DNA of 37,036 nucleotides from a virus. Its lineage: Duplodnaviria > Caudoviricetes. The DNA lies in IMG/VR virus record IMGVR_UViG_3300038379_000594, positions 1 through 37,036 of that record; one strand, 5' to 3'. The notes beneath the pieces were generated by a model. The model worked only from the letters and a program-made list of their open reading frames with translations, made no database searches and was not told the origin of the DNA. The first letter of the stretch is position 1. Every line of letters begins with the position of its first letter. This document shows positions 14,745 through 35,047 of this stretch, piece by piece. The translations under genes were made by a program, and so were the position numbers.

Positions 14745-14837
14745 GATTGTAAGTTAGTATGGGATATTCCAAGTCGATTCATTTGAGGCTTGCATGAATT
14801 TGCAGGCTCATTTCTCCGTTTTTTTTGGGGTTGAGTA

Positions 14838-15242: not shown

Positions 15243-16463
15243 ATGGATTCACGTATCTTCAGAGCTTTAATTTTTTCCGTCCCAGCTTTTTTTGCCTTTT
15301 GCTACCTTCTCGTTAACGATTCAAGGGCAGATTTAACAGGTGATACTGAGTCCGTTATGCCTGTTAAAATAAAAGGTCGAGACGAATTGCACACTGCTGA
15401 CGTCTTGCTTGAGGGGGGTATACGGCGTTTAGCAACTGATTCGGTTGTAACGGTTGAAGAAGTGTTCGGGCAAGACCCCCAAGGAACTACTTGGGGGTTC
15501 TTCGGCAATACACTTGAGGATGCAAATGGTATAGGGTCTACCGGTAACACGGTAAGAGTTCAAATCCCTGCGGCGGTAACACCTCTAGGAACTATTTACC
15601 CTGCGGTAGATTACACTTACACAATTACTGCCTCGGATGTTGCAAATAGTAACCCGGAAAGAGCCGTGGCGTTAAATCTTTGCACCGGATTGAATGCTGA
15701 CGCCAATTTCCAGAGTGCGAAGTGGCAGTGCTCTGTGGCTAAAGATTTCTCATTGTTTCACATTAATTCTCGATTGTTTAATGAATTCGGGACCAGAAGT
15801 TCTTGGACTCTGACTTGTTCGGGAGCTACGGTTTGTAATCCAGGGTATACTGACATTAAGAGGAGGGGGAAACCTACAGAATTGTCGAGATCCCCCAATG
15901 ATCCAAGGCAAGGAATTTTAGCTATAGCAGGTACTGTGTCTACAGTTCCAGGAGGAATAGGGGACGCATTCTACTCCTACCTAAAAAATACAGTCGGCTC
16001 TAATAATTTTAAAATAGATTGTAGCCCCTATATTGCAGGAACGTGCGATTTCAAAGTTGAATCTGTTTCTGATGAGATAATATTCATTGAGTATATCAGG
16101 TGTTTTGGTGGGGGTAGCGGTATCCAATTCGGAAAGTTTCTTAGTCAATCCGGGACCGGATTGACTAATGGTTTGGTTATGTCGGTTAAAAGCGAAGATG
16201 AGATTTTCACTTTTGAGCCAATTAAAAAGACCGAAGATTTCAAAAATATTATGGCGTCCATTCCTGGGAGTGATTTTAGGGTCGATATTCAAAGTGGGTC
16301 AGATCAATTTATCGCTCAATTTAGGCCTTCTGTTGCTATCCCTTTACTGCCGTCAGGGACTTTCACGACGAACGATTATATCAATATTAAAGTTTCAGAC
16401 GACTTATCAGCCGGTTTAGCTCAATTACAGTGCAGTGTATTTGGATTCAAGAGGGAGCCGTAA
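15243..16463 (+). CDS. putative virion-associated protein with N-terminal signal peptide
   Basis: MDSRIFRALIFSVPAFFAFCYLLVNDSRA|DLT; 8 Cys in the mature part; beta-rich. Confidence 0.65.
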   Translation: MDSRIFRALIFSVPAFFAFCYLLVNDSRADLTGDTESVMPVKIKGRDELHTADVLLEGGIRRLATDSVVTVEEVFGQDPQGTTWGFFGNTLEDANGIGSTGNTVRVQIPAAVTPLGTIYPAVDYTYTITASDVANSNPERAVALNLCTGLNADANFQSAKWQCSVAKDFSLFHINSRLFNEFGTRSSWTLTCSGATVCNPGYTDIKRRGKPTELSRSPNDPRQGILAIAGTVSTVPGGIGDAFYSYLKNTVGSNNFKIDCSPYIAGTCDFKVESVSDEIIFIEYIRCFGGGSGIQFGKFLSQSGTGLTNGLVMSVKSEDEIFTFEPIKKTEDFKNIMASIPGSDFRVDIQSGSDQFIAQFRPSVAIPLLPSGTFTTNDYINIKVSDDLSAGLAQLQCSVFGFKREP

Positions 16464-16467
16464 TAAT

Positions 16468-16986
16468 ATGGGCATTCGAATACCGGAAAGAGATTCTGCG
16501 GGCAGGGATATCAACAGAGTCACAGAAATAACTCCTGGTAGAACGATGCACGAAAGAGCGGTGCAGTTTACCACTTCCACGTTAGAATCTCTTTTCAACT
16601 CTGAATTTACCGACGTATTTATATCTTTCTTAGCGGCCGACGACACAGAGTTGACAACCCAAGAAACTATCGACACTAGTTGTGTTAAAACTAAAGTGTC
16701 TTTTAGGCCTACATTCTCTTACGACATTATCGGCGGGTTTGCGGAGGTTGCGAACAGACCAGACCAGCACGTCAGAGTTGACGTCATTGCTGCTCCTGGT
16801 GTGCTTAATACGAGATTAGTATCCGGTGTTAGCTTAAAAATCAGTCCGAAAGTTGTATTGGATGGAAGGACAGCGAAGGATTTGCCGTACATAGAGGGTC
16901 TACCGATAAATTGGATCGATATGGTTTTTTCCCATCCTGCGGGCTACAAAATTGAAGTGCAAGTTGTCTGGGAGTTGTTTAAGTGA
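16468..16986 (+). CDS. hypothetical, possibly structural protein
   Basis: GAGGGAG upstream of ATG 16468; stop overlaps the next start. Confidence 0.6.
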   Translation: MGIRIPERDSAGRDINRVTEITPGRTMHERAVQFTTSTLESLFNSEFTDVFISFLAADDTELTTQETIDTSCVKTKVSFRPTFSYDIIGGFAEVANRPDQHVRVDVIAAPGVLNTRLVSGVSLKISPKVVLDGRTAKDLPYIEGLPINWIDMVFSHPAGYKIEVQVVWELFK

Positions 16987-17519
16987 AACTATCCCTGCTG
17001 TGGGTTAAAACTAAAGACAGTAGATCCTCAGATCTAGTCTGTAAAATCTTAGGGGAGAAGTGCTCACACTTTGCAGTTGCCGTACATTTTGACCGTGGAA
17101 ATACCATAGTCTGGCATTCTACACCGGGCGGTGTTCAATGGATTGACTATCTTGATTATCAGAAATCGATAGTCATTGTAGCTAAAAGAGAGTACGACTG
17201 TATCCCTCAATCTGAATATTTCTACGCTTCTTTGTGCTCCAAATTGTTAAAATTTGAAGGTTACGACTATCTAGCTGCGGCGGGGTTAGGTCTAAAGAAG
17301 ATATGCAAATCGGTAGGTATTAACCTCAAAAGTAACGTTTTGAATTGCAAGAGTTTAGCAGTTTGTACCGAGATTTATAAATGCGTTTCTGATGCTTATC
17401 AGTCAGTGACGGGGTCAGCTTTGCTACAGATTGAAGCGGAAAGTAGTTTTTTGACGCCGTGGGAGCTATATATCGCTACACACAAAGCTGAAAGTGATTG
17501 TAAAGTGTTAAAGATTTGA
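16983..17519 (+). CDS. permuted papain-like NlpC/P60 (YiiX/YebB-like) enzyme
   Basis: His before Cys: SHFAVAV...VWHST..GV...GYDY...AVCTEI...LTPWEL. Confidence 0.7.
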   Translation: MKLSLLWVKTKDSRSSDLVCKILGEKCSHFAVAVHFDRGNTIVWHSTPGGVQWIDYLDYQKSIVIVAKREYDCIPQSEYFYASLCSKLLKFEGYDYLAAAGLGLKKICKSVGINLKSNVLNCKSLAVCTEIYKCVSDAYQSVTGSALLQIEAESSFLTPWELYIATHKAESDCKVLKI

Positions 17520-17541
17520 GAAATAAACCTAGGAGTTAAAT

Positions 17542-17826
17542 ATGAAGCTATCCTATCCCACGGCAAGAAAAGCAACCATTAAGGGACCTTATATATATTT
17601 GGATAAAGCTGGTCCGATATCTTTGAATTTAGGTGCTGAGGGAGTCGAAGTGCCTGATGAAGTAGCGCATAAAATATTAGAGCAAGATGGTGATATTATT
17701 AAGGTTTACCATGATCCGGTGGACATGTCGGAGGTTTTCCCCTCGGAAGTTGAAGAAGTACCAGAGAAAAAAAGGGCTGCGGCGGCGCCAAGAAATAAAA
17801 TGGCGGGTGAAGTAAAGAATAAGTGA
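17542..17826 (+). CDS. small head-completion region protein
   Basis: AGGAG RBS; EVPDEVAHKIL and C-terminal PRNKM; lies before the connector gene. Confidence 0.6.
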   Translation: MKLSYPTARKATIKGPYIYLDKAGPISLNLGAEGVEVPDEVAHKILEQDGDIIKVYHDPVDMSEVFPSEVEEVPEKKRAAAAPRNKMAGEVKNK

Positions 17827-17855
17827 ATTGAGAGGTAGGTGATTGGAGGTGTCTT

Positions 17856-18485
17856 GTGGCTCTTGCAGTAAATGCGTTTGTATCTTTGAGTACAGCTAAA
17901 GATCACCTACAAATTCCCCCGTTAGTAGTGAACCAAGATTCTCGAATTGAGAGAATGGTTAATACTGCTAGCGCGATGATCGAGAGCTACACCAATCGAT
18001 CGATAGTCAGCAAATCGATTATTGAGCATCAAGACGGTAGATCCAGCAATAAGATCTTGCTCAATCAATATCCCTTTGTAACTGGACCTGCGACCGGCGG
18101 TAAGCCGAGAGTTTGGATTGATGGGCTTTCCAATTTTAACGCTTTAGCAGAAGTAGACCCGGAATCTTACTACGTTGACAAAGAAATTATGATTATTAGG
18201 ATTTCCGGAATATTCCCGAAAGGTTACAGGAATATTAAGCTAGAGTACACTGCAGGTTTGGGCCTTATTGACGCTTTACCAGCGGATATAACTTGGGCTT
18301 GTTTGGAGTTGGTTGCCTGGTATTACAACACTTCTTCAAACCATCGGATTGGAGTTATTAGTCAGGGTAAACTAGGAGAAAACGTTAATTTTGAGCAGCT
18401 ATTGCCCAAACACATCGAGTTGCTGTTGCAGCCCTATGTTCGTTTTGAATTCCCGGATGCCAGCGTTGGTGTGAGGAATTCTTAA
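17856..18485 (+). CDS. head-tail connector (HK97 gp6/SPP1 gp15-like)
   Basis: VSLSTAKDHL...ASAMIESYTNR...YTAG...PADI..ACLELVAWYY...LLQPY. Confidence 0.85.
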   Translation: MALAVNAFVSLSTAKDHLQIPPLVVNQDSRIERMVNTASAMIESYTNRSIVSKSIIEHQDGRSSNKILLNQYPFVTGPATGGKPRVWIDGLSNFNALAEVDPESYYVDKEIMIIRISGIFPKGYRNIKLEYTAGLGLIDALPADITWACLELVAWYYNTSSNHRIGVISQGKLGENVNFEQLLPKHIELLLQPYVRFEFPDASVGVRNS

Positions 18486-19039
18486 TGCCTGAACCAATTT
18501 TTGAAATAAATGCTGAAACAGATAAAATAATATCTAGAATTAAATCTAGAATTGAAAGAACTCAACCTAAAAATCCAGCATTATTGAGATCGTTGCATCG
18601 TGTTGGTTTGTTGATATCGAATCAAGCTAAATTAAATATCAGAACCAGAAAACTAATAGACTTTGGACATTTGCTTAATTCGATATTTTACAAAATCCAG
18701 GATACCGCAAATGGTCCTGAGCTGTTGGTCGGGAGTTTCGGGATTCCCTACGCTCGAATTCATGAGTTTGGGGGGATTATTAGACCAGTTCGAGCTAGAG
18801 CTTTAGCGATTCCCCTTCGAAAGGAATTTAGAAATATACCCCCAAGGACTCTAGATTTGTTTGTGCTTAAAAGGGGTGGTAAGGTTTTCCTAGCAAGAAA
18901 GAACGGCGGTAAACTAGATATTCTGTATGTCTTGAAAGATCAGGTCCGCATACCTGCAAGGCCTTATTTGAGACCCGCTTTAGTGCGACACAGGGAGAAA
19001 ATCCTCGATATTTTAGCCGAGGGGTTTATCAGTCAATGA
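18485..19039 (+). CDS. virion morphogenesis / tail completion protein
   Basis: GHLLNSI, YARIHEFGG, IPARPYLRPAL. Confidence 0.85.
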   Translation: MPEPIFEINAETDKIISRIKSRIERTQPKNPALLRSLHRVGLLISNQAKLNIRTRKLIDFGHLLNSIFYKIQDTANGPELLVGSFGIPYARIHEFGGIIRPVRARALAIPLRKEFRNIPPRTLDLFVLKRGGKVFLARKNGGKLDILYVLKDQVRIPARPYLRPALVRHREKILDILAEGFISQ

Positions 19040-19482
19040 GCATTCAAAAACAGGTATTTTTAAATCTCAAAACTAAACTCCAGGAATTACCCTGGGCCAA
19101 TCTTGTAGAGTTCGAAAATATCCGGCTGCTGGCTAGTGAGTTTAACGCGCACGAGTTTCCTGCTATTCAGATTTATGACAATGGGGAGACAGCGACACAA
19201 TTGAAGGGCAGAACTTCCAATATTCTTTCAATATCGATCGAATTAGTATTAATGCGTTCCGCCGTTACTGGGCTTGTAGACCAAGGACAATTGTTCGACA
19301 AGAAATTAGAGATAAAACAAAAAATTGGTGAGGACCCAAGATTAGGGATAAACGGTGGTGTAGACGGCACCATAATGCACATCCAATATGTGGCGGGTGC
19401 TACAGACTTGCATAGTCTTGCTCCACACTATTTAGCTCGTCTCGATTTTGAAGTATTATTTCATGAACCTTTCAGTTGCTAA
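19036..19482 (+). CDS. putative tail terminator
   Basis: Size, FPAIQI motif, position before the tail tube gene. Confidence 0.6.
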   Translation: MSIQKQVFLNLKTKLQELPWANLVEFENIRLLASEFNAHEFPAIQIYDNGETATQLKGRTSNILSISIELVLMRSAVTGLVDQGQLFDKKLEIKQKIGEDPRLGINGGVDGTIMHIQYVAGATDLHSLAPHYLARLDFEVLFHEPFSC

Positions 19483-19537
19483 TAGATTTTTGACAACCCC
19501 GATTTGGGGCAAAAATAACTAATTTGGGAGTTTGGAA

Positions 19538-20773
19538 ATGGCTAAGAATTTTGCCTCAATTTACAACTCGGGGAATGACGCTGTTGCGCTAGAGCAAAGG
19601 ATTTTTATCAAAGAGGAAGTGACAAGAGGAACTTTAGCAGTCCCAGCGGATGCTGATTTTATCTACACAATAAACGGTGCGCAGGTAACTTTCACTCAAC
19701 CAGTAGAGAGCAGTCCAGTAAGAAGCGGAAGGCATCACAGCGGGATAATCCGCCAAAAGACATCTACTGAATGGACTCTACCGACTTTTTTTATGGTCGA
19801 TACGTCCTTAGGCGCCCCATCAGTTGCGGAAATCGATCCAGGTATGAGGGTACTTTATGAGAGTTTATTTGGCCGAGAGACTTCCCCCGGTGGTGTTTTA
19901 ACTTATGACCCTGCGACGCCGCCGAATATCACTTTTTCAATTTACAACAATGGGGATCAGTGGGCACAACAAGCTCCCGGCGCTTTCGTGGATTCTGGGA
20001 ATGCGACTTTCCCTGGGGACGGACAAGCGCAGATAGAGTTTGCCGGGATGGCTAAGACTGCTTATCTCGTGGGTGTGGGCAAGTCCGCAACTAATAATAA
20101 CGCAGGCAACACTGTAACTGTAGGGACGGGGGAAGGTGAAAGATTCCCAGTTGGTGCGAAAGTGATGCTCATTAAAGTTGCTAGTACTCGATCAACTGAC
20201 ACGCCTAACGGTTCCGCACGAACTGTGACTTCTGTAGCCGGTGATGTTGTGACGCTAGATGGAGCTGTACTTGCGGATGCTGATGGCACTGCTGGGGATC
20301 TATTTCTCTGCTACTACGAACCCGCAGCCCCTACAGCGATCAACAATCCGATTACAGGCTTAGTGGGAAGTTTCTCGATTGTTAATTTGCCGACGATGGA
20401 TTGTGTAAGATCAGTCGGAATAAATATGACGAACAACCATGAACCTATGGACTTTTGTTACGGCCACGAAGGTCTAGGAGGCCCCCTCTTTACACCGGGT
20501 GGTAGGTTCACTGCCGAAGTGACGATGGAGCTAAATCTCAATCACGATCTGGTGGAATTTATCAACAAAGTAAGGGACTTCGTGGGTGAAGACCTAACAC
20601 TTGTCCTGGGATCTCCGACAGGTCGCAGATTAGAAGCTACGATGCCCAAAGTTATATTCGCAGTACCCGAAATTCCTGTACCCGACACTGGTACTATCCC
20701 GATTTCTTTCACGGGGAATGCGTACCAAACTGCGGAAGATGCGGCTGATGAGGTGATGTTTGAATTCAAATAA
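19538..20773 (+). CDS. major tail tube protein with an inserted beta domain
   Basis: IFIKEEVTRGT start, LYESLFG, INMTNN, MPKVIF...ISFTGNA; followed by a terminator and the chaperone gene. Confidence 0.8.
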   Translation: MAKNFASIYNSGNDAVALEQRIFIKEEVTRGTLAVPADADFIYTINGAQVTFTQPVESSPVRSGRHHSGIIRQKTSTEWTLPTFFMVDTSLGAPSVAEIDPGMRVLYESLFGRETSPGGVLTYDPATPPNITFSIYNNGDQWAQQAPGAFVDSGNATFPGDGQAQIEFAGMAKTAYLVGVGKSATNNNAGNTVTVGTGEGERFPVGAKVMLIKVASTRSTDTPNGSARTVTSVAGDVVTLDGAVLADADGTAGDLFLCYYEPAAPTAINNPITGLVGSFSIVNLPTMDCVRSVGINMTNNHEPMDFCYGHEGLGGPLFTPGGRFTAEVTMELNLNHDLVEFINKVRDFVGEDLTLVLGSPTGRRLEATMPKVIFAVPEIPVPDTGTIPISFTGNAYQTAEDAADEVMFEFK

Positions 20774-20801
20774 TTGATACTCCAGGTTAAGTGGGATACT
20801 T

Positions 20802-20827
20802 TAGGGGTTAACAACCCCTATTTTTTT
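20802..20827 (+). terminator. rho-independent terminator after the tail tube gene
   Basis: TAGGGGTT-AAC-AACCCCTA followed by a T run. Confidence 0.85.
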
Positions 20828-20844
20828 ATTTTTTGGAGGATGCT

Positions 20845-21324
20845 ATGGGTGTATTTCTCGACGATAACGCAACAAAGAATTTTGAATTGATTCTCCGGAT
20901 TGATACGGCGGTTCGATGTGAAGATGGAGTTTATGACCAGTATTTGGAGAATCTGGACGAAACTTTATTAAATCTCGATCCTGAGCAAGAGCCTACGAGA
21001 TTTATCTTTCGCAGGGTTCTACCTTGGGACGCTCAACAACGGGTAGAGCGTGCGAAGGTAGACGCTGAGACGCGTGGGATAAACCTTGGGTATTTGCACG
21101 AAGAGGTTAGGGCTTCATTAATCGATATAAAAGGTCCAGGGATTAAATTTCAAAGAGATAAAGATTCTCTTTGCTCCAAAGAATTGATTACGAAGTTGGT
21201 GAGTGCCGGGGTTATTAATGATTTGGTGACTGCAAGACAAAAGGCTAATACTAATTCTATAGAATCCATGAAAAAAAAATCTCAGCCGTCCTTGAGCTTA
21301 GCTTCACAGACACTAGAGAGCTAG
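20845..21324 (+). CDS. tail assembly chaperone (lambda gpG-like)
   Basis: GGAGG RBS before ATG 20845; between tail tube and tape measure; A9 run near the 3' end. Confidence 0.8.
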   Translation: MGVFLDDNATKNFELILRIDTAVRCEDGVYDQYLENLDETLLNLDPEQEPTRFIFRRVLPWDAQQRVERAKVDAETRGINLGYLHEEVRASLIDIKGPGIKFQRDKDSLCSKELITKLVSAGVINDLVTARQKANTNSIESMKKKSQPSLSLASQTLES

Positions 21325-21719: not shown

Positions 21720-21722
21720 CAA

Positions 21723-24700: not shown

Positions 24701-26693
24701 GGGGGTTGGGGCACTAAACGGCGCAGTAGGTGCGGTGGGTGGGCTACTAGCTGTAATTTTCAAACTGCCAGAGATTTTGAAGTCCGTTTCAGGAATTTTA
24801 AACCAGATCACAGATTGGCCTAAAGCTCTTATCGAAGCTTCAGAAGAAGTGTTGAGCTCCTTCACTAATCTAGTAAGAAACTTCTTAGGGAATGTCATTG
24901 ATCAAGTAGGAAATAGTATTGATGCTGCAGTGGATTTCCAAGAAAGACTACCAGAAGCTCTAAGTGAAGGACTTAAAAAATTCATAGATGCCTTAGTCAA
25001 GCTGTTTGATAAATTGCCTGAGATGGTCCAACGAGTAGCTAAAAATGCGATCACCTTCTTACCTAAATTAACTCTTTCGATAGTGAAAGGTGCGGTAAAA
25101 CTTGTATCGATGCTGGTCAAGACATTACCAAAACTTATACCAGAGATAATAGTTTCGGTAGTTGACGGGACCATCGAAGCGATCAAAGAATTGCTCAATG
25201 AACTGTTTAAGATCTTCGGAGGTAAGGCAATATTTAATCTCGGTAAAGGAATTGAGGAAGGTGCGAATAAAGCCGTCAAAACCCTTACCGGTGTGTCAGA
25301 ACAGCTCTTCACTGTTCGAGATGCCACGAAAGAAGCTCAAGGGTTGGATATAGCGGACAAGATAGCAAAGGCTATAACCTCCAGCGGGAACCGTGCGGCG
25401 GCTTTTTTAATTAGGGCTTGGAAGTTGATCGAAGGATTCTTAGTCAAAACTTGGCATTTTCTTCTGGATTTACTATCCAAAGCTTGGCTAGGTATTATCG
25501 AGGGTCTAACTTTCTTGTTTGACGGTGTGGTACAAGCTTTCAAATGGGTTTTTGAGGATGTTCTATCTCCAATATTTAACGGAATATTAGAGGGATTAAA
25601 AGGCGCCTGGGAGATTCTGAAATCAGTGGGTGAAGGTCTTGTAATAGCTTTAGGTGCTTTGTGGGAGGCACTAAAAACCATCGGACAAGGCCTGGCGGAT
25701 CTTTTGGGTGAAGCGTGGAAAGGTCTAGAGCAAGTAGGCGTATTAGTGTCGGGCTTGTTCAGCAAGGCCTTCGAGGCACTACTTACGGTAGTAAACAAAG
25801 GCGCCGAGGTATTAACAGCCGCCTTAAATTTAATTTTTGAAGGGCTCAAAAAGACTTGGGAGTCCTTAGGTACAATCTGGAACACTCTTAAAGATATTGG
25901 TAGACCAATCCTAGACGGTCTGAAGAGTTTATTTGACGGACTATCAGGTATCTTCGATACAGCGACCAAACCCTTAAGGGACTTGTTTTCCGGCCTTAAG
26001 AATTTATTCGTTGAATCCATAAAACCCTTGACCGATCTGTTTGGAGGGCTAAAGGAGACATTCTCTGGAGCTATAGCGCCGGTGAGAGATATCTTTCAAG
26101 GCTCGGCAAGATTCTTTGAAAATATTTTCAAGGGATTAAAAGGGATATTGAATCTAGACTTCACTGAAGCGGGCAAAGGTTTCAGTGAAGCTCTCACTTC
26201 AGGGCTTAAAGATAGTGCGAATTTGTTCATTAAGATCGCAAATGGATTTATTGAAACTATAAACAAACTGAAGATTCCTGCGTTAGATTTTGATTTTAGC
26301 ATTTTGGGTAAAAGAGTTTCGGGGAGGATTTGGGGGGACATAGATTTAATTCCTGGGGATATCGAGAAGTTTGCGGAGTTTAATTCTGGGGGTTTAGTGC
26401 CCGGTTCTGGGAGTACTGATTCAGTACCGTCCCTGTTAACCCCAGGTGAATTCGTAATAAATAAAAATTCAGCGAATTCGCTAGGTTCTGGTGTTTTAGC
26501 TAGTCTCAATAAAGGAATCATGCCACAATCGAACGTCAATCAAAATTTTGAAGTCAGGGTTGAGATTAATACAACCCAACCGTTAGACGCGGACGTAATA
26601 CGGACAAAAATTGTCCCGCAGATGATGGGTGAGATCAAGAAGCAAAGTTTACGTGGCCATTTTGTTTTGAGCGATAAAGGTACAAGATCATGA
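21723..26693 (+). CDS. tape measure protein
   Basis: 1656 aa, helical, with hydrophobic segments, ~11-residue W/F repeats and C-terminal FNSGGLVPG...DSVPSLLTPGEFVI; AGGAGG RBS. Confidence 0.95.
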   Translation: MAVSEELLIKVKVNSGDSSKSLSQLQKELKELGSADEEILKAALALESMNAETIRINQEVGKLDKEVVSAGASLGKFFQTVNDMTLEMQHNVEATNILTAAFKTIGTIGFGEKFGKGLIGTTLAADVAATVLTVLGKSAENAESNLLGILAGASLVAGFLLGQFSSAVLHAINLLSDLAISIGVTLYNSMRKFETVFTKLDKTIHQFQFGVKNFADSTDGASGSLENWEKVVENLTETTAFSLADISKAVKILVAEGSAIGLEYSQQFELLTRATDIASFHSRDLTDTLLALVSGLTGNSSAVIALGIDLRELALTQNLMSEASDKSLDNMSDLQKTQLRYNQIMKKTSPIIGSAAEELRTFDGRVAQVNKTVELIQSKIGQMGVLYRFIIDIVQKTTLAILKLPDPILKMVGTFTDFGSVILIVGGYLLKYLSAITLLIGGFDILNKVIKFTSANSKSLGGEFLRQEGIKSLSDLLSVFGKGFKTSIADVLSRFANLDKISKGLKATLISLAAGLLGFFQQVVTFGGKAIVILAPIAAKLTLLFLLVTATSKAMGEIVGEVSIVSDAISDFSKSLDNVSEGLGHAAEVSKDFGKSLKSNILPFVNLVLDKIAKIVKVLILGFGTAASVLSYFGSVILKVGFFLTESTPSLDKFIRKSEFAMASLSKSVKDVIDSFLEYDKKIIESEKLGASFFSKTQKKLSLGEVELDVLNFNKIEIFGDEFEKAIGKAQKSLTEFNREKDKFDRANAESSQEAIDLLKKVKDSREESYKLFFSGQKQLIDLEKNWREELSKTEVELLKASGEERKALQLSIELNKKKFDLEVKNLKHAENVFFGGQTRITALSKKFRENLELELKLFDLRKKQEALKKIDDERIKVLDDLKSRYKSLSQSIIDLEKEASSQGKSTSENLQYGYQLQLESLEVEREKLRVAGLLDKKIGEEIDKLKSLHGKEFELKIKAAESSKNFFTSEGLQDIQNVLGVSTKNFASVLGKGVGALNGAVGAVGGLLAVIFKLPEILKSVSGILNQITDWPKALIEASEEVLSSFTNLVRNFLGNVIDQVGNSIDAAVDFQERLPEALSEGLKKFIDALVKLFDKLPEMVQRVAKNAITFLPKLTLSIVKGAVKLVSMLVKTLPKLIPEIIVSVVDGTIEAIKELLNELFKIFGGKAIFNLGKGIEEGANKAVKTLTGVSEQLFTVRDATKEAQGLDIADKIAKAITSSGNRAAAFLIRAWKLIEGFLVKTWHFLLDLLSKAWLGIIEGLTFLFDGVVQAFKWVFEDVLSPIFNGILEGLKGAWEILKSVGEGLVIALGALWEALKTIGQGLADLLGEAWKGLEQVGVLVSGLFSKAFEALLTVVNKGAEVLTAALNLIFEGLKKTWESLGTIWNTLKDIGRPILDGLKSLFDGLSGIFDTATKPLRDLFSGLKNLFVESIKPLTDLFGGLKETFSGAIAPVRDIFQGSARFFENIFKGLKGILNLDFTEAGKGFSEALTSGLKDSANLFIKIANGFIETINKLKIPALDFDFSILGKRVSGRIWGDIDLIPGDIEKFAEFNSGGLVPGSGSTDSVPSLLTPGEFVINKNSANSLGSGVLASLNKGIMPQSNVNQNFEVRVEINTTQPLDADVIRTKIVPQMMGEIKKQSLRGHFVLSDKGTRS

Positions 26694-28114
26694 CCATAGC
26701 TGTCTACACAGACCTGGGGGATTATCTAGAAGACGACTATTTGTCGGGACCTTACTTATCCCCAAGTCGTGTAGGCTACATGGGCTGTCAAATCCTTTTC
26801 ATCACCTCTAACACCCATGAAGCTGGTTTACAGACTAAATTCCAAATTGTTGACCATACCGATGAATACGGCAATCAAATAAATTTTGTAATTGCCGAAG
26901 ACGATGTTTCAGGGCAACAAACTCAATTTTTAATCACTGAAACTGCTCCTTTCGCTATCCAATCTAACTTTAGCATTGTAGATCACATTGAAAGTTACGG
27001 CTTACAGACCAATTTTGTAATCGCTGACGTAGACAACAGATACGGAATGCAAAGTAACCTTGTAATCTTAGACGTAAACAATCGCTACGGAACCCAGAGT
27101 AATTTTGTAATCTCGGACATCAACAATCGATACGGGATGCAAACCAATATTGTAATCTCAGATATTAACAACCGTTACGGACTACAAAGCAAATTCATAA
27201 TCTTGGACAGCGACAATCGTTATGGGTTTCAATTCATCGCGGTAAATTCTGAGATTGCAGCGTTTCAGGCTTTGATAACACTCTACAATACAGATTTACT
27301 ACGGATACTATGCGACTTCCCGAGCCGAGGCACTCCAGGGCAAGCTGGAAATTCTTGGACTGCAAATAGTACAGAGCCAGGGGACTTCAACGCTAACAAC
27401 CTAAACACGGATATTGTAGAACAAATTTGGCGTTCGACTCTTGGGACCGTCACAGGTGTCACTTTGACGTGTGACACAGGACTGCCACAAGGTGTATTCT
27501 TGGACACTTTCGCTGCTCTTAACCACAATCTAACTACATCGGCCCTAGTGACTCTAGTGGGAGCAACAGACTCAGGATTTACAAATATCGTAGTTAGTTT
27601 GGTACTAGAGGTCACTGAAGAGAACTTCTATTACATAGCACCTTTGATTCCGGATGTTTCAGCAAGATATTGGCGTGTAAATATCGACGATGCCGCTAAC
27701 CCTGATAATTTTATCTCAATCGGGACGATCGTTTTTGGAGCTTCAAAAGTCTTCATAGGAGAATGCTTTGTAGACGAGATACCTTTCCAAATCCAGGATT
27801 TTGCCGATCGTGTTGGTACTGAGGGCCATACGAACGTGTCTAATAGCCGGGCGATAAAGCGTAGAGTTGAGTTGGAGTTTAGAAGTATTGATTTCAACAA
27901 AAGGAATTTTGGGATTATGCGTTCGATGTTTAAGGAACGTAGGACAGTAAATAAGTGTCTCTGGATTCCAACACCTTCACCAGACGATCAGAAAGTAACG
28001 GACCGATTCGCAGTGTTTGGAAAAATGGAATCTATACCCACTGAGAGACACAACAACAGGGGAGCTGATGCAGATTACGTAAATTTCACTGTAGTCGTGG
28101 ATGAGAGTTTATAA
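26690..28114 (+). CDS. tail-tip (distal tail-like) protein with N-terminal repeats
   Basis: Directly after the TMP; NHNL and ARYWRV galactose-binding-like motifs; ends FTVVVDESL. Confidence 0.65.
   Translation: MTIAVYTDLGDYLEDDYLSGPYLSPSRVGYMGCQILFITSNTHEAGLQTKFQIVDHTDEYGNQINFVIAEDDVSGQQTQFLITETAPFAIQSNFSIVDHIESYGLQTNFVIADVDNRYGMQSNLVILDVNNRYGTQSNFVISDINNRYGMQTNIVISDINNRYGLQSKFIILDSDNRYGFQFIAVNSEIAAFQALITLYNTDLLRILCDFPSRGTPGQAGNSWTANSTEPGDFNANNLNTDIVEQIWRSTLGTVTGVTLTCDTGLPQGVFLDTFAALNHNLTTSALVTLVGATDSGFTNIVVSLVLEVTEENFYYIAPLIPDVSARYWRVNIDDAANPDNFISIGTIVFGASKVFIGECFVDEIPFQIQDFADRVGTEGHTNVSNSRAIKRRVELEFRSIDFNKRNFGIMRSMFKERRTVNKCLWIPTPSPDDQKVTDRFAVFGKMESIPTERHNNRGADADYVNFTVVVDESL
26820..27235 (+). 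repeat. coding tandem repeat, ~45 nt / 15 aa unit
   Basis: YGLQTNFVIADVDNR, YGMQSNLVILDVNNR, YGTQSNFVISDINNR, YGMQTNIVISDINNR, YGLQSKFIILDSDNR, plus ~4 degenerate upstream copies. Confidence 0.85.
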
Positions 28115-29820
28115 TGAGTTCTTCAGACAGACAACCGCACCTTACTGCGACTGTGTTAGACCAAGCATTACTTGATGCTTGCCACGATAATTTGAATTGT
28201 CAGTTAGAAATGGCGGTAGATATTCAAACTCCTACGGGTTTTATTCGAGCTTCTGATCGTAACAAATATATCGGAGGAGTGTTTTACGAAGCTCTTCTAA
28301 ACTTCCCGGTAATTCAAAGAACAATCGGCGACTGGCTTGCGGGGGAATTGGAATTTTCTAGTTTAGAATTGGAGCTATCCAATGTTGACGGAAGATTTAA
28401 TAATTTTCTGCCTGGTGGCGCTAATTTTGGTGGGTGGATTGGTAAGACTGTGGAGGTGAAGATCGGTCTTAGAGATGTCGCGTCAACTTATAAAACTATC
28501 TTCTCGGGGTTTGTAAGCGACGTAGGAGGATTCGGTAGGACGGTAAAGACGATAAGAATTAGCGCTCGGGATAAATTTGACAAGATCAACGTCAGTTTTC
28601 CTCCAGCAGTTTTCACATCTACGACATTCCCAGACATTGATAACGATGTTGCGGGTCTTGGTGTACCTGTAATTTACGGGGATTGGACGGTCGAGGTTAA
28701 TCCTGGGGGGAGTGTACCTGCGTTCCCAGTGAATGGGGCAGATCCGGACGTAAACGGTAACTCGAGTCATACCAACAATGTCCAATTAAGAATATCGGAC
28801 AACTCTTTAACCTTATTTGACAACACTACCGTTCATTTAAAGAGAGGTGACGTTTATTTCTTATTCGCAAGTGCCGACATAACTAACGTGCCTCTATCCA
28901 ACAATGCATTTGAGATTATCCAAAATGGTGTAACACTAGTAGAGGGTAATCCCTACGAGTATGATTCGGGCGATTCTTTCTTTGTAAAAGTAAAAGGCAA
29001 GGATTTAGGTTCTTACGATGACAACATCGTAGAAATAGCTCGGGATATTCTGATGACTTACGGGGGCCTAACTCCCCCCGACTTTGACTCTTCTTGGAAC
29101 ACGGTCAGGGATAAAAATTCCCCAGTAGAATCTGCGATAGTAAATTTCAAATCAAGAGTATGGCTGCAAGAAGCTCAGCCGTGCTTAACTTTCGCCTTAT
29201 CTCTTTTAGAACAAGTAAGGTGTGAGGTATTCGTAGATCGTAATCTAAAATTCAAAATATCCACTTTGCATTTGGATAGTTTAGATCCTTCACCTAGCTA
29301 TAGAATCCGTAACTGGGATGTAGTGAAAGATTCTTTTTCACCCCACCTCGACGAAAGAAACAATTTTAATAGGGTTCAAGGGGTTTACAGTTTTCTACCC
29401 GATCTAAATGAGAACTCGCGGAAGACACCGATACATAGGAATTCCGCCGCCGTAAATCAGGCGGGGAAGGAAATATTTAAAGAGATAGTATTCCCAAATC
29501 TTTATGAGGAGTTTGTCGTAATAAATCAATTGAAGGAGATGTTGCGTTTAGCTTCTGCCTATTTAGAAATTATTGACGTTGAGTTGACTTGGCGTTCAGT
29601 ATTGCTAGACATTTCAGACATGGTTAAACTTAACGTACAAATTGGTAGTAGTATTTACTCAGACGTGCCGTGTTTAGTAAGACAAGTCGGATACGATCCA
29701 GCAGGCTTAAAAATACCTGCTACAATTTGGTCTTTTCAGATGGTTCCATTCCCTGGTTGGTCGCCAGGGTATACAGGTATAACTGGCGGAACTACCGCCG
29801 TAATAACACAAGAGAGTTAA
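28114..29820 (+). CDS. baseplate hub / tail-tip protein
   Basis: LELSNVDGRF, IFSGFV, ARDKF, VPVIYG, LDISDMV motifs; synteny. Confidence 0.7.
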   Translation: MSSSDRQPHLTATVLDQALLDACHDNLNCQLEMAVDIQTPTGFIRASDRNKYIGGVFYEALLNFPVIQRTIGDWLAGELEFSSLELELSNVDGRFNNFLPGGANFGGWIGKTVEVKIGLRDVASTYKTIFSGFVSDVGGFGRTVKTIRISARDKFDKINVSFPPAVFTSTTFPDIDNDVAGLGVPVIYGDWTVEVNPGGSVPAFPVNGADPDVNGNSSHTNNVQLRISDNSLTLFDNTTVHLKRGDVYFLFASADITNVPLSNNAFEIIQNGVTLVEGNPYEYDSGDSFFVKVKGKDLGSYDDNIVEIARDILMTYGGLTPPDFDSSWNTVRDKNSPVESAIVNFKSRVWLQEAQPCLTFALSLLEQVRCEVFVDRNLKFKISTLHLDSLDPSPSYRIRNWDVVKDSFSPHLDERNNFNRVQGVYSFLPDLNENSRKTPIHRNSAAVNQAGKEIFKEIVFPNLYEEFVVINQLKEMLRLASAYLEIIDVELTWRSVLLDISDMVKLNVQIGSSIYSDVPCLVRQVGYDPAGLKIPATIWSFQMVPFPGWSPGYTGITGGTTAVITQES

Positions 29821-29831
29821 GGAGTTTCGGA

Positions 29832-30503
29832 ATGGCGGTAAATTTAACTTTGTCTGAGACTTTAGGCGGTAGTGCAATTGCTGATGCATTATCGGGAGGA
29901 GGAACAGGTTTAGATTTTGGTTCGGTACAGAACGGAAAGTATGCTCCACTAGTGAATCAAGCATTAAATCAGGGGTTTCAGAGTCTATATATTAGGCACG
30001 ACGCGGCTATAGATCCAATTACAGATGTGAAATTCTTCATAGATGCTTATAGCACTACTGGGTTTACTTATGGTGGTGCTCAATCTTCCGCTATTGATTA
30101 CACGACGATGAAATCTTTGGGCTCAGCTTCCGGAACATCAAAAAACAACCTTGACGGGTTATCCGGTGGTCTCTGGATTGATATGGATGCTGCTCAACGA
30201 TTGGGGGCTAACGACACCACGAGATTTGATATTGCTTCAAGACCGACCAACGTTAAAATTTTCGGCGATAACGGTACAGACGGACAAGATTTAGCGTCCG
30301 CATTTCTACTGCAGTCCGAGAGTTTGGTGAACGCTGGCCATGCGACACCGTCGGCACCTGTAGATGGTCAAATAGGTAAATCTTTGGATACTGTGAGAGG
30401 AGATAGTGCTTTAGTCCTTCTACGTGTTTATCTTCCTACCGCTCATCCGGACGGGGGGATAGTGCAATGGGCTTTTGCGGTAGTATACTCTTTCACAGCG
30501 TAG
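29832..30503 (+). CDS. putative tail structural protein
   Basis: AAGGAG RBS before MAVNLTLS; Gly/Ala/Ser-rich; has its own terminator. Confidence 0.65.
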   Translation: MAVNLTLSETLGGSAIADALSGGGTGLDFGSVQNGKYAPLVNQALNQGFQSLYIRHDAAIDPITDVKFFIDAYSTTGFTYGGAQSSAIDYTTMKSLGSASGTSKNNLDGLSGGLWIDMDAAQRLGANDTTRFDIASRPTNVKIFGDNGTDGQDLASAFLLQSESLVNAGHATPSAPVDGQIGKSLDTVRGDSALVLLRVYLPTAHPDGGIVQWAFAVVYSFTA

Positions 30504-30525
30504 GGTAGTCCATAGCATCGCTGCA

Positions 30526-30562
30526 TGTAAACCCTCTTCGAAAGGGGGGTTTACAATTTTTT
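30526..30562 (+). terminator. rho-independent terminator
   Basis: TGTAAACCCTCT...GGGGGGTTTACA stem followed by a T run. Confidence 0.8.
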
Positions 30563-30578
30563 AAAGGGTGACATTTTT

Positions 30579-30998
30579 ATGATTCAGCAAGATGTAAAAT
30601 TTATTCCTTACCGCTTTGAAATACGTTGGGGTTTTGATTATCAAGACGGAAGACAAAGATTCGGGGAGTGGACAAGACCTGGGGGGACTGAAGCTACTAG
30701 GGCTTATTCTCAAGACTTAAAAACCGCCAATATGGCTTTTATCGAAGTGAAGAATAGGGAGACACGAGAGATACTAAGGATAGCTGGGTGCCTAATTCGT
30801 GATTATGTAAGATTCCAGTGGGTTTCAACTGTTCCGGTAGGTTTTAAAGAAGAAAGTGGGATGATGAAAGTTCAAACAGGTACATATTCAGGTTCAGTCC
30901 AGGGGCTCACACTAGTTACTACAGACAAAAAATTCACACAATATATTGATGGAAGTTGCAAGATGGAAGAAACAGGAGGTGCAAATGCGGTACATTAA
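30579..30998 (+). CDS. hypothetical protein
   Basis: ORF with AGGG RBS, overlapping the next start. Confidence 0.65.
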   Translation: MIQQDVKFIPYRFEIRWGFDYQDGRQRFGEWTRPGGTEATRAYSQDLKTANMAFIEVKNRETREILRIAGCLIRDYVRFQWVSTVPVGFKEESGMMKVQTGTYSGSVQGLTLVTTDKKFTQYIDGSCKMEETGGANAVH

Positions 30999-33075
30999 GT
31001 TTTTAGCATTTATTGCCAGTTTATTTATTCAGGATGCTTCTTACTCTGTGGTTATTTCTCGATCTGACCTAGACCATCCTGCTTTAGGTACTTCGGGAGG
31101 CGCTGCGTTGCATACGCAAATCCAAGCGATTTACCAACAACTCGGTGATCAAGATAATAGCAGATACAAAGTTTACACATCTATAGCTAACTCTACTCTT
31201 AGCACCTACAAGCACAATTTCGGTGTAGCTTTTGAGGATTTAAAAGTATACATCTACACGGGTACTACGGGCAACTTAACTAGAGTTGCAAACCCAGGTC
31301 TTTCCGGATGGACTATAGTAGCAAACGGTGTAAACCAAAAAACTGAAATCGATGTCACGACGCCTAGCTCAGGCGGGCCACACACATTTGTCGTCATAGT
31401 CGTGCATACTCCGGAATCAGGTGTAACACTTCCTGAACGGACTGTAGGTACTGTGGGTGCTTTATCTAATGCTCAGGGGGCACTCGTAGACTCTTTATTC
31501 CCAGTAGCAGCTAACGTCCGCTACTTCCACTTGGACGCTTTTGAAAGTCCGGTTCTTGAGGAAGGGTCGAGGGGCAATAATTTACAAACCAACGGTCTTT
31601 CGTCTTCGAATTGGAGTGGTAAGGGATTTTTTGATAGAGAATCGGTATTAACTCTGGATGGTGTAGACGATTTCGTCTACAACGATGAAGCCCATTACGA
31701 CTCAACAGTTTACGAGAGTTACGGTTTGTGGGTGAAGATATTCGGATTTGGAACTAACCAAGCGATTTTCTCTTCCGGTCCCAGTGATCAGAATAGAAAA
31801 TTTCGAGTATTAACTGATGGGACTCTCCAATTTTTTCGTGGATGCACTACTACACATTTCGATTTTAGACATTTTATACCTCCATCATGGTTAGGTAAGT
31901 GGGTTCATCTGGCTATGACGGTATCTGGAAGTACAAGTCCGGAAATAAAAGTTTACATCAATGGGGACCTAACTTTTAAGGGTTCATGTACCGGTTCGGT
32001 ACACACTAACTCTGCCTCATTTCGTCAAACAAATATCGGTGCGATAGACACGCCCTCCCAATCGCCTACAGAATATTTTAAGGGTGAGGTACAAGATTTC
32101 TTTTTCTATGGGGATCCTGGAGCTACTACTGTACTGACGGAATCTGAGATTAAAGCAATTTACTCTCGTAGATTCACAAATACTGATCAACTAGCCGGGG
32201 GGCATGTTTTAGATGCGGACAGTTTCAATTTCTCTCCTTTAGTGGGGAAAGTTTATTTTTGGAACTTAAACGCAGACTCTTTAGATGATTCCGGGAACGG
32301 TGAAAATCTAACAAATTTGAACTCCACGCCTTTTACCGGGTTGAATATCTTCGGTATATCTGGCGCTGCGAGTTTAGACGGAGTTAATCAGCGTTTTGAA
32401 AGCACTTCTGCAGCTTTAAATCCTGGTACTGGCCACCAGACAGTTGGTGGGTGGTTTAAGTCAAGGTATTGGTATAATGCGACTGTTAACACTAACAGAG
32501 CTTTGATTTGGATCGGTAACGGGAACGACTTCACCGATTCGATACAGCTTTTTACTGCTTCCGGTGACGGGGGTATTTTATGCAGGATCGGTGTCGGGAG
32601 TAATGTAAACGATCACCATATCTACTTATCTCCCTTAGAGATCATTGAAGGATCTTGGGTGCACGTGGCTTGCAGATACGACCCCACAAGACTGACCACG
32701 GACATTTTTATAAATGGGGATTTAGTTAGTTCCCAGCAATCCAGTTTGCCTATCACTAACCCTTCAAATTACTTTGTGGTGGGGGCAAGAAGGTCTGGAG
32801 GATCTTTACCTTTTGAGGGCCAAATCGAACAAGTTTTCTTAGCGAAAAGGTTTTTAACGGATGCTGAGATAAAAAAGATCGCCGGATCTAAAATTGTTCA
32901 CTCAGGTTCTGTTAAGACGCATTCTTCTTGGGTCAATACGATTAGAACAGAAGATAAAGACAATACAATCTCTCTGCCCTTCGCCGGTGTGTTAGACTCT
33001 AGATCTTCGAAACTGTTCGGTTCATGGTCTGATATAGATGCTGGAAATTTATTAAATCTCTCAAATAGGGAGTAA
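30985..33075 (+). CDS. tandem LamG/ConA-like domain fibre or receptor-binding protein with signal peptide
   Basis: AGGAGGT RBS before MRYIKFLAF. Two LamG repeats: LDGVDD...WVK...WVHLAMT...YING...FKGEV and LDGVNQ...WFK...WVHVAC...FING...FEGQI. Confidence 0.8.
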   Translation: MRYIKFLAFIASLFIQDASYSVVISRSDLDHPALGTSGGAALHTQIQAIYQQLGDQDNSRYKVYTSIANSTLSTYKHNFGVAFEDLKVYIYTGTTGNLTRVANPGLSGWTIVANGVNQKTEIDVTTPSSGGPHTFVVIVVHTPESGVTLPERTVGTVGALSNAQGALVDSLFPVAANVRYFHLDAFESPVLEEGSRGNNLQTNGLSSSNWSGKGFFDRESVLTLDGVDDFVYNDEAHYDSTVYESYGLWVKIFGFGTNQAIFSSGPSDQNRKFRVLTDGTLQFFRGCTTTHFDFRHFIPPSWLGKWVHLAMTVSGSTSPEIKVYINGDLTFKGSCTGSVHTNSASFRQTNIGAIDTPSQSPTEYFKGEVQDFFFYGDPGATTVLTESEIKAIYSRRFTNTDQLAGGHVLDADSFNFSPLVGKVYFWNLNADSLDDSGNGENLTNLNSTPFTGLNIFGISGAASLDGVNQRFESTSAALNPGTGHQTVGGWFKSRYWYNATVNTNRALIWIGNGNDFTDSIQLFTASGDGGILCRIGVGSNVNDHHIYLSPLEIIEGSWVHVACRYDPTRLTTDIFINGDLVSSQQSSLPITNPSNYFVVGARRSGGSLPFEGQIEQVFLAKRFLTDAEIKKIAGSKIVHSGSVKTHSSWVNTIRTEDKDNTISLPFAGVLDSRSSKLFGSWSDIDAGNLLNLSNRE

Positions 33076-33080
33076 CACTG

Positions 33081-34646
33081 ATGTTCCGAATTTTACTTTT
33101 CATCTTTTGTGCGTTTTTGGTTTATTCAGGCAACGTAGCAGACATTAAAATAGATCGAGGTAATTTAGTAGGTAGAAGTGTAGATGGCACCGAAACAATA
33201 CCTGGCGCAGAGTATTACAGGGCTATCGGCAATATAAATTCGGGACAGATTGTTAGATACGGATACAACGAATCTAACAATTATATATCCACTTTAGATA
33301 TGCTAGTTGGTCCTGCTTACAAGTCCGTGCGAACGCAGATATCGACTAACTCAATAAATAACGTCAAAATATTAGTAACTCCAACAAAACCGGCACGAGT
33401 GATAGTTTTCTACCACGACGCAAGTTCTAACGATCGAAAAGCCAAAGTCGGGAGAGTAGCACCTGACGGGACTATAACTTTAGGTCCTGCCACGACTATA
33501 ATGGCTCACTCCAACGGCCCTGCGGAGGTATGTTGGAACTATGCGGCTTCTAGAATCGTATTTGCAGGTCAACCGACTAGTGGTACTTCTCTGGGGTTTA
33601 AAGCCGCGAGTATTGATTTAAACACAGATGTTTTAACCCTCGGAATTGAGACTTCGGCCTTCCCTTCTGCTAATGCCGACGCAAATTTAGACTGTGAATA
33701 TATAGGAAACGATAGTCGTCTCGTGTTTGCTATGGGCAATACTACTTCAAACGCATGCTCTGCAGTCACTGTTAGTGTGTCAGGTTTGTCAGTCTCTGTA
33801 AACGGTCCGCAAACAATTATTTCCTCGAATAATTTTTGCAGGATGGGGGTGATACCTAACTCCGGGACTCCTGGGACAATGTATTTTGTGAATTCTGCCG
33901 GGGCACATAATCAATGTACTTCTTCTTCTGGAACTATAACTTGCCAGGGTCTAATAACTACAAGCGCCTCTGACTTTGGGGAACCTTACGTATTCGCCAA
34001 CAATTCTCATGGAGGAATAACAATTTGGAGGATTACATCCACTGGTAATACGGCTCAAATCTTTGGAAATTTTGTTGACCGACTCACGGCCTCACCCTTC
34101 ACAACTTCATTCCGACAAACTTTCGCTAGTGCGGGGTTGAATGGGTTAAATGGCGGTTTCAATTTTTCAATATTTTCAAAAGATAAAGCGCTTGTCTTCT
34201 ACAACGGTAAAGACGCCAAATATTACAGTACGTATCTCAGTCCACAGCAAGGCGCCGTGCAGGTTTCAGAGGATGTTTTTCCGGCGGTTTCGACTGGTGT
34301 CGACTCGTATTACTCCGAAGAGACTGGAATCCTAATAGCGGCTAGCTCTGGTCTTGCAGCTAACAACACTGTGTCAGTAATAAATCCCGGGAACATCTTC
34401 GGGATAGCTGCAAAATCTGTGAATTCAGGAGAATTGGTGCCAGTTATCAGATTCGGAGGCATCTATTCTGGTATTTCTAGGGGAACTCAGGGGGGTGTGA
34501 ATTTTACCCCAGGATCTCGCTACTACTACAACACCCAGACAGGCAATTTGAGCACTACAATTAGCCATTTTTTTATCGGGATAGGAATTACTCCCACGAA
34601 AATAAAAACTGATTCGTTTTCGGAATGGATTAATTATGTGAGGTAA
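33081..34646 (+). CDS. putative spike/receptor-binding protein (propeller-like insert) with signal peptide
   Basis: MFRILLFIFCAFLVYSG start; GTITLG-type blade repeats; C-terminal IFGIAAKSVNSGELV...FTPGSRYY...IGIGI. Confidence 0.65.
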   Translation: MFRILLFIFCAFLVYSGNVADIKIDRGNLVGRSVDGTETIPGAEYYRAIGNINSGQIVRYGYNESNNYISTLDMLVGPAYKSVRTQISTNSINNVKILVTPTKPARVIVFYHDASSNDRKAKVGRVAPDGTITLGPATTIMAHSNGPAEVCWNYAASRIVFAGQPTSGTSLGFKAASIDLNTDVLTLGIETSAFPSANADANLDCEYIGNDSRLVFAMGNTTSNACSAVTVSVSGLSVSVNGPQTIISSNNFCRMGVIPNSGTPGTMYFVNSAGAHNQCTSSSGTITCQGLITTSASDFGEPYVFANNSHGGITIWRITSTGNTAQIFGNFVDRLTASPFTTSFRQTFASAGLNGLNGGFNFSIFSKDKALVFYNGKDAKYYSTYLSPQQGAVQVSEDVFPAVSTGVDSYYSEETGILIAASSGLAANNTVSVINPGNIFGIAAKSVNSGELVPVIRFGGIYSGISRGTQGGVNFTPGSRYYYNTQTGNLSTTISHFFIGIGITPTKIKTDSFSEWINYVR

Positions 34647-34956: not shown

Positions 34957-34995
34957 AAATAAAGGAAGGATTTGAAAAGACAGATTAGTGACAAT

Positions 34996-35016
34996 ATTGC
35001 CCAAACGGGCAATTTT
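34996..35016 (+). terminator. hairpin, possibly a weak terminator in the lysis cassette
   Basis: ATTGCCC-AAAC-GGGCAAT then TTT. Confidence 0.4.
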
Positions 35017-35047
35017 GGGAGTTTACCGGAATATTTGGAGGCGATTT

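What the first reader, a model, noticed from the sequence alone, without database searches (positions are those of the whole stretch)
15243..34646. Virion-type proteins with Sec-like signal peptides and paired cysteines: a possible periplasmic appendage-assembly route
Seen: three late genes in structural positions start with basic-hydrophobic-cleavage leaders: 15243 (MDSRIFRALIFSVPAFFAFCYLLVNDSRA), 30985 (MRYIKFLAFIASLFIQDASYS, strong AGGAGGT RBS) and 33081 (MFRILLFIFCAFLVYSG). Their mature parts have 8, 4 and 6 Cys, with two in each LamG domain. Known: tailed-phage virions assemble in the reducing cytoplasm and fibres normally lack signal peptides. Inference: these proteins are exported, disulfide-folded in the periplasm and dock on virions at lysis, or are displayed by the infected cell as adhesins or receptor blockers. 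This is the best candidate here for an undescribed system.
Basis: partly seen in the sequence, partly recalled or inferred. Interest (0 to 1): 0.85.

Follow-up and report, generated by a model that had tools for sequence, protein, structure and literature searches.

The report
Secreted, disulfide-paired phage appendage proteins
An uncultured tailed phage puts predicted secretion signals on three appendage-like late proteins, and in the best-sampled family the signal and paired cysteines come and go together, so these parts likely fold in the periplasm and would join the virus particle only when the cell bursts.

Summary
The three leaders and the 8, 4 and 6 cysteines are there. The window is an uncultured siphophage late operon; host unknown. 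In the 15243 family, 55 of 55 leader-bearing homologs have an even number of mature cysteines (2-14) in strictly co-occurring column pairs, while 21 leaderless homologs have 0-2; the states switch together several times on the tree. That is strong evidence for export and disulfide folding. The 30985 N-terminal domain sits at the same tail-tip position in 18 of 18 loci, leaderless in 14; two complete relatives hold only a leader-bearing copy. Cultured Cellulophaga phage phi10:1 has four unrelated leader-bearing proteins annotated as virion proteins by mass spectrometry. Docking on virions at lysis is inferred, about 60%. Weak points: 30985 cysteines are not conserved, its GTG 31048 could give a leaderless form, 33081 has no homologs, and no SignalP was run. 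Ten literature searches found no description. The scan found the same pattern before on other phage DNA.

The parts
15243..16463 (+). 406-aa protein: predicted signal peptide 1-29, strand-rich stem about 30-75, beta/alpha domain 78-208, jelly-roll domain 236-405; four predicted disulfides 147-163, 192-198, 260-268, 287-397; likely a decoration or spike subunit
15243..15329 (+). predicted Sec signal peptide of 15243
   Evidence: 55 of 78 homologs scored carry a leader
13055..17826 (+). accessory gene block between major capsid gene and head-tail adaptor (13055, 13933, 14559, 14838, 15243, 16468, 16983, 17542); leaderless except 15243; homologs follow the capsid gene in several phage types and lie at the tail end in others
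   Evidence: no Pfam or PHROG family except one weak hit on 14838
26690..30998 (+). conserved leaderless tail-tip block (26690, 28114, 29832, 30579) that precedes the anchor-bearing fibre gene in relatives
30985..33075 (+). 696-aa fibre-like protein: predicted signal peptide 1-21, conserved N-terminal helix plus beta-sandwich domain (likely tail anchor), two LamG domains
30985..31047 (+). predicted Sec signal peptide of 30985; GTG 31048 right behind it is a possible second start
31048..31416 (+). conserved N-terminal domain, present after the 30579 ortholog in 18 of 18 loci that reach this far
33081..34646 (+). 521-aa orphan: predicted signal peptide, six cysteines in 151-288, weak C-terminal likeness to phage cement domain PF09956 (E 7e-4, under the cut-off)
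34651..36237 (+). lysis end of the operon: two small genes (the first holin-like, inferred) and a glucosaminidase-amidase endolysin

Best explanation
The three late genes encode appendage-like proteins with predicted Sec signal peptides, which are likely exported, likely fold in the periplasm (15243 with four predicted disulfides) and would dock on finished particles when lysis opens the inner membrane. Steps: (1) the genes are tightly coupled parts of the late operon (seen in the sequence); (2) Sec export and cleavage (predicted from leader anatomy and homologs); (3) disulfide formation (inferred from covariation: strong for 15243, weak for the other two); (4) the proteins stay soluble in the periplasm (predicted: no further transmembrane stretch or lipobox was flagged); (5) at lysis 30985 binds the tail tip through the N-terminal domain that leaderless orthologs also carry, 15243 binds its leaderless accessory block, and 33081 binds through its cement-like end (all inferred, untested). 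Export is a per-gene switch, not a per-phage one: G002 has a leaderless 15243 ortholog with no cysteines beside leader-bearing tail-end proteins. The likely gain is oxidative folding and stability of exposed host-recognition parts.
For:: 55 of 55 leader-bearing 15243 homologs have even mature Cys counts; 54 of 55 have 4 or more, against 0 of 21 leaderless; nine column pairs never occur singly and four of them are the window's own eight cysteines. On the tree (leader cut off, Cys masked) leaderless rows nested among leader-bearing ones have 0-1 Cys and one leader-bearing row among leaderless ones has 8; the anchor domain follows the 30579 ortholog in 18 of 18 loci, 14 leaderless and 4 with a leader; complete genomes G001 and G003 each hold one anchor match, and it is the leader-bearing one; G003's has no start codon between leader start and domain; the predicted cut matches the leaderless N-terminus; the nearest relative (68%) also has a leader; both 15243 domains resemble virion folds (sheath and nozzle insertion domain Z 10.4, rmsd 2.3, 95 aligned; KHP40 cement Z 6.2, rmsd 4.0, 113 aligned). 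GC and GC3 like their neighbours, abutting or overlapping genes, no promoter-like site directly before any of the three; phi10:1 gp091-094, annotated as structural by MS/MS, all four carry leaders.
Against: No virion of this group has been examined and no cultured relative or host genome was found. Fold matches are middling and shared with non-virion proteins (flagellin Z 9.0, glycoside hydrolases Z 6.4-6.5; the anchor's best match is a bacterial neuraminidase domain, Z 8.1). The 30985 cysteines are not conserved, and the leader-bearing anchor fibres of L042 and L043 have odd counts (3, 5); the 15243 ortholog in L005 has 7. GTG 31048 could give a cytoplasmic form; 23 of 55 leader-bearing 15243 homologs have a Met just after the leader, against 3 of 21 leaderless. 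33081 has no homologs. The 15243 gene is dispensable in this phage group (1 of 9 relatives). The phi10:1 proteins are unrelated in sequence, carry only 0-2 Cys, and proteomic annotation can include co-purifying proteins.
Confidence: 0.6

Rival explanations
1. The proteins are exported but never join the virion: former appendage genes reused as soluble periplasmic or released proteins that block receptors, act as decoys or coat the infected cell, like moron products.
For: Export and disulfides fit equally well. LamG and jelly-roll folds bind surfaces and sugars. These phages also carry many lipoprotein genes near the tail end. 15243 is absent from 8 of 9 relatives searched.
Against: G001 and G003 would then have no cytoplasmic copy of a domain found in 18 of 18 tail-tip loci. 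The docking-type N-terminal domain is kept at 50-65% identity to leaderless orthologs. No moron-like promoter or composition shift. No membrane anchor to hold them on a cell. phi10:1 leader proteins are annotated as virion proteins.
Confidence: 0.22
2. Each gene makes two products: a leaderless cytoplasmic form from an internal start that joins the virion normally, and an exported form with another role.
For: GTG 31048 lies 4 codons before the conserved Arg, where leaderless orthologs have their Met at 5, with AGGA 13 nt upstream. Met39 of 15243, and a Met in that stretch in 23 of 55 leader-bearing homologs. A gene caller chose TTG 33117 for 33081.
Against: L042 has no such start; L043 and L049 have only a GTG or ATG inside the hydrophobic stretch, without a well-placed SD. 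32 of 55 leader-bearing 15243 homologs lack the Met. Strict Cys pairing is not expected for a form that folds in the cytoplasm.
Confidence: 0.12
3. The leaders are uncleaved anchors that tether assembly to the inner face of the membrane, with the mature parts in the cytoplasm.
For: No cleavage predictor was run; the 15243 hydrophobic stretch is long and modelled as a helix.
Against: Basic N-regions favour an N-in orientation (established positive-inside rule). Small residues at -3 and -1 recur across homologs. Leader and Cys pairs co-vary.
Confidence: 0.06

Closest known systems
Cellulophaga phage phi10:1 gp091-gp094 (KC821618)
   Same: Tail-end genes of a cultured siphophage, annotated as structural by MS/MS, all four with Sec-type leaders.
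   Different: No sequence likeness to the window's proteins; 0-2 Cys; the annotation lines shown do not mention leaders; no export route is described in anything I found. The source paper (Holmfeldt et al. 2013, recalled) was not seen.
Filamentous phage (inovirus) pIII (recalled, no call)
   Same: A virion adhesin made with a Sec signal peptide, with domains that gain disulfides in the periplasm.
   Different: pIII stays membrane-anchored and joins during extrusion of a non-lytic ssDNA phage; here the proteins are predicted soluble and the particle is a lytic tailed dsDNA phage built in the cytoplasm.
Late-added fibres and cement proteins of tailed phages (P22 tailspike, T4 long fibres, lambda gpD; recalled; KHP40 cement 7dou)
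   Same: Appendages that bind finished particles, also in vitro after lysis (recalled); jelly-roll, cement-like and LamG domains.
   Different: These have no signal peptide and fold in the cytoplasm.
Moron and lysogenic-conversion envelope proteins (lambda Lom and Bor, T5 Llp, Cor; recalled)
   Same: Signal-peptide genes inside structural operons.
   Different: They are outer-membrane proteins or lipoproteins without leaderless orthologs in the same virion gene slot; no lipobox or anchor here, and no moron-like promoter was found.

Membership tests
Sec/SPI-exported disulfide protein | basic N-region, hydrophobic core, small residues at -3/-1 | tested here: met
   by inspection and hydropathy script only
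Sec/SPI-exported disulfide protein | leader conserved in homologs | tested here: met
   15243: 55 of 78; 30985 anchor: 8 of 35 including the nearest relative; 33081 has no homologs
Sec/SPI-exported disulfide protein | cysteines in co-varying pairs tied to the leader | tested here: met
   met for 15243 only; not conserved in 30985; untestable for 33081
Sec/SPI-exported disulfide protein | paired cysteines adjacent in three dimensions | not testable with these tools
   the model's coordinates are not returned
Sec/SPI-exported disulfide protein | export and cleavage in cells | not testable with these tools
   needs experiment
Tailed-phage tail fibre or spike (30985) | gene after the tail-tip block with conserved N-terminal domain and variable distal binding domains | tested here: met
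   18 of 18 loci; lengths 213-1171 aa; LamG in some
Tailed-phage tail fibre or spike (30985) | N-terminal domain has the fold of a known tail-attachment domain | tested here: inconclusive
   Carin-1 tail assembly chain 8ck1_B Z 6.5, rmsd 6.8, 93 aligned; best row is non-phage
Capsid cement, turret or spike protein (15243, 33081) | cement or jelly-roll fold | tested here: inconclusive
   15243 domain 2 Z 5.8-6.3 to SPV1, KHP40, phiCjT23, HFTV1 chains; 33081 PF09956 under cut-off, Atlas cluster with 18% PF09956
Capsid cement, turret or spike protein (15243, 33081) | present on the particle | not testable with these tools
   no cultured relative
Moron | own promoter and terminator, distinct composition | tested here: not met
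   genes abut or overlap neighbours; GC 0.43 as in the operon; no promoter-like site directly upstream; a terminator-like hairpin at 30526-30555 lies one gene before 30985
Lipoprotein or membrane-anchored receptor blocker | lipobox cysteine or transmembrane anchor in the mature part | tested here: not met
   none flagged in the three
Inovirus pIII type | C-terminal membrane anchor, filamentous non-lytic phage | tested here: not met
   HK97-type capsid, tail tube, tape measure and endolysin genes; no C-terminal hydrophobic stretch flagged

The most novel reading that the evidence does not exclude
Tailed phages have a second, extracytoplasmic assembly line: host-recognition fibres and decoration proteins are sent through Sec, oxidised by the host's periplasmic disulfide machinery and snapped onto particles during lysis. 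Single gene families flip between the cytoplasmic and periplasmic route by gaining or losing a leader, and in the 15243 family a set of disulfides goes with it.
Probability: 0.6. Interest if true: 0.9.

Novelty: new variant of a known kind. Interest (0 to 1): 0.77.

Why it matters
Tailed-phage particles are taught to be built wholly in the cytoplasm. An export-then-dock route would add a maturation step at lysis, make infectivity depend on host Sec and disulfide systems, and explain leader-bearing 'hypothetical' genes that annotators read as morons or cut at a downstream start. The 15243 family is a natural experiment: one fold in a leaderless, cysteine-poor form and in an exported form with 1-7 predicted disulfides. 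phi10:1 makes the idea testable now in a cultured, non-pathogenic system.

Tried and rejected
Complex prediction of the 30985 N-terminal domain with the 29832 protein: no answer, score 0.00, controls not folded; not used as evidence either way. Host: two GTDB genome scans found no prophage; no cultured phage matched 15243, 28114, 13933 or the tail tube, and 30985 matched only a LamG stretch of an archaeal virus; capsid and terminase matches were under 30% and spread over many hosts; provirus record G008 showed no obvious host flank. A Bdellovibrionota host was my first guess from memory and stays untested. 33081: no homolog in two large searches; P0110 and P0111 are chance repeat matches; it was not folded. 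Foldseek on the 15243 model gave no PDB match at E 0.001; profile searches of PDB sequences gave nothing useful. Raw cysteine counts were rejected as evidence because leaderless neighbours have as many. The binomial and Fisher values treat related sequences as independent and are not taken as probabilities. The careful tree did not finish; both trees are quick trees. Five papers opened by keyword dealt with lysis proteins or bare counts, not exported virion parts. No sequencing-read check was run.

Full report
Setting. The window is the whole record G000, a 37-kb virus contig rated 71% complete. It holds a siphophage late operon: terminase, portal fused to a MuF domain, prohead protease, HK97-type capsid, adaptor, neck, tail tube, tape measure and an endolysin. 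No cultured phage or GTDB genome carries close relatives, so the host is unknown; lipoprotein-like genes in the window and relatives point to a diderm (inference).

Observation. The three leaders, start contexts and cysteine counts are as described. SignalP was not available; I used inspection and a script (an uncharged 9-residue window of high hydropathy near the N-terminus, no net negative charge before it). In the window it flags the three genes and one false positive among 29 ORFs. The three genes abut or overlap their neighbours, share their GC and GC3, and have no promoter-like site directly upstream.

15243 family. A search gave 84 proteins including the query. I dropped 4 that lack their N-terminus and 2 cut at the C-terminus. 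Of 78 left, 55 have a leader, 21 do not and 2 are ambiguous; four labels were changed by hand (P0005 to leader, P0081 to leaderless, P0029 and P0039 to ambiguous). All 55 leader-bearing proteins have an even number of mature cysteines (2 to 14); the 21 leaderless have 0 to 2. Nine column pairs never occur singly (query numbering 44/51, 147/163, 192/198, 260/268, 274/371, 287/397, 289/300, 291/301 and one insertion pair). The window's eight cysteines are four of these pairs. On a quick tree of the mature part with cysteines masked, the leaderless label needs 4 changes, 2 forced by starred branches. P0060 and P0062/P0067 sit among leader-bearing rows with 0-1 Cys; P0083 sits among leaderless rows with 8, on a long branch. 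So leader and disulfides appear to switch together more than once. One ortholog outside this set (L005) has a leader and 7 Cys. The gene follows the capsid region in siphophage-like loci, a podophage-like locus (L003) and a 116-kb record. It is optional: 1 of 9 relatives with the same tail block has it, and there (G002) it is leaderless with no cysteines while tail-end proteins have leaders. The AlphaFold model (pLDDT 87.5) has a domain like sheath, nozzle and crAss001 capsid insertions (Z 8-10, also flagellin Z 9.0) and a jelly roll like cement and turret proteins (Z about 6, also glycoside hydrolases). These are middling scores that fit a virion surface protein without proving it.

30985. 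Its first 120 mature residues are a conserved domain joined to variable fibre-like or LamG parts. Of 22 tail loci fetched with the 28114 protein, four end before this gene and L048 (same match as L047) was not read. In the other 17 and the window, the domain follows the 30579 ortholog in 18 of 18: 14 leaderless, 4 with a leader. The predicted cut leaves an N-terminus in register with leaderless orthologs. The nearest relative, P0088 (68%), has a leader; the label changes 3 times among 35 rows. Complete genomes G001 and G003 hold one copy each, leader-bearing. If this domain is the tail's fibre anchor, as its position suggests, these phages must attach an exported protein. Its fold match to known anchors is inconclusive. 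Against: GTG 31048 could start a leaderless form in the window; L042 has no such start, and L043 and L049 have only poorly placed ones inside the leader. The four cysteines are not conserved in 7 LamG-bearing homologs, and L042 and L043 have odd counts.

33081. No homologs. It has a weak cement-domain match at the C-terminus and Atlas look-alikes at 0.96 that are viral clusters, one with 18% PF09956, from a query under the recognition bar. It is the least secure of the three.

Breadth. In 27 loci including the window, the script found 39 leader-bearing non-lipoprotein genes on the late strand; 24 of the 30 with cysteines have even counts, against 60 of 140 leaderless homologs of window genes. 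This set includes the window's three, several 15243 orthologs and probably two lipoproteins. Leader genes also occur between tail terminator and tube (three in G003) and at the capsid and tail-fibre positions of podophage-like L003.

Cultured precedent. An earlier scan note pointed to Cellulophaga phage phi10:1. GenBank annotates gp091-094 as structural proteins by MS/MS, and all four carry leaders, while the other MS-annotated proteins I translated (gp077, 080, 083, 087, 088, 090) do not. They are unrelated to the window's proteins and have 0-2 Cys. This shows leader-bearing proteins in a virion preparation, not how they got there.

Mechanism. Most likely: late co-expression, Sec export, periplasmic folding with disulfides, release when holin and endolysin breach the envelope, then docking on particles through domains inherited from cytoplasmic ancestors. 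That fibres and tailspikes can attach to finished particles outside cells is recalled for T4 and P22 and comes from no call. My odds: export of 15243 about 0.93, of 30985 about 0.85, of 33081 about 0.75; docking on virions about 0.6 overall. Rivals: exported non-virion decoy or blocker 0.22, dual start 0.12, uncleaved tether 0.06.

Literature. Ten searches of PMC and bioRxiv (listings and abstract starts seen) found no account of Sec-exported virion appendages in tailed phages. Keyword passages were read in PMC3556154, PMC3765740, PMC7996906, PMC5776456 and PMC5723332; they concern lysis proteins or counts of signal peptides. PMC5776456 has a figure marking both signal peptides and MS-detected proteins that I could not see. 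No supplements were opened, and subscription papers, including the phi10:1 source paper, are outside the library. The scan's own notes report the same pattern in at least eight other windows; these are unchecked leads, and none matched the 15243 sequence.

Verdict. The feature is real. Export with disulfide folding is well supported for 15243, and export is likely for the other two. Assembly onto the virion is the best reading but untested. New variant of a known kind; interest 0.77.

Noticed in passing
window 540-794 (+): 84-aa lipoprotein-like ORF with a lipobox-type cysteine and six more cysteines, outside the late operon; no Pfam or PHROG match.
   Followed up: no
window 6458-9979: Portal fused to a MuF minor head domain with about 550 residues between them; relatives have 740-990-aa versions.
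   Followed up: partly
window 12973-12995 and 30526-30555: Terminator-like hairpins after the major capsid gene and after 29832, which may mark 29832 as a high-copy tail protein.
   Followed up: no
window 26690-28114: Distal-tail-position protein with several internal repeats of about 16 residues; length varies from 323 to 616 aa in relatives.
   Followed up: no
window 16983-17519: Leaderless 178-aa protein with 9 cysteines and an N-terminal His motif, in the accessory block; similar genes recur next to the block in relatives, possibly a peptidase-like enzyme (guess).
   Followed up: no
L046 16563-18680; G009 30322-34094; L039 17227-21701: Homologs of the post-capsid accessory block lie after the tail-fibre genes instead, so the block moves as a unit.
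   Followed up: partly
G003 31159-32678; L041 1050-1796; L046 2033-2374; L047 1362-1748: One to three leader-bearing genes with 4-6 cysteines inserted between tail terminator and tail tube genes.
   Followed up: no
L003 5150-7450, 9953-11607, 15109-15927: A podophage-like genome with five leader-bearing late genes, including one at the tail-fibre position.
   Followed up: partly
L043 17978-18931; L051 16399-17373; L056 14355-15239: Cysteine-rich lipoprotein genes of about 300 aa between fibre and lysis genes in many relatives; none at this place in the window.
   Followed up: no
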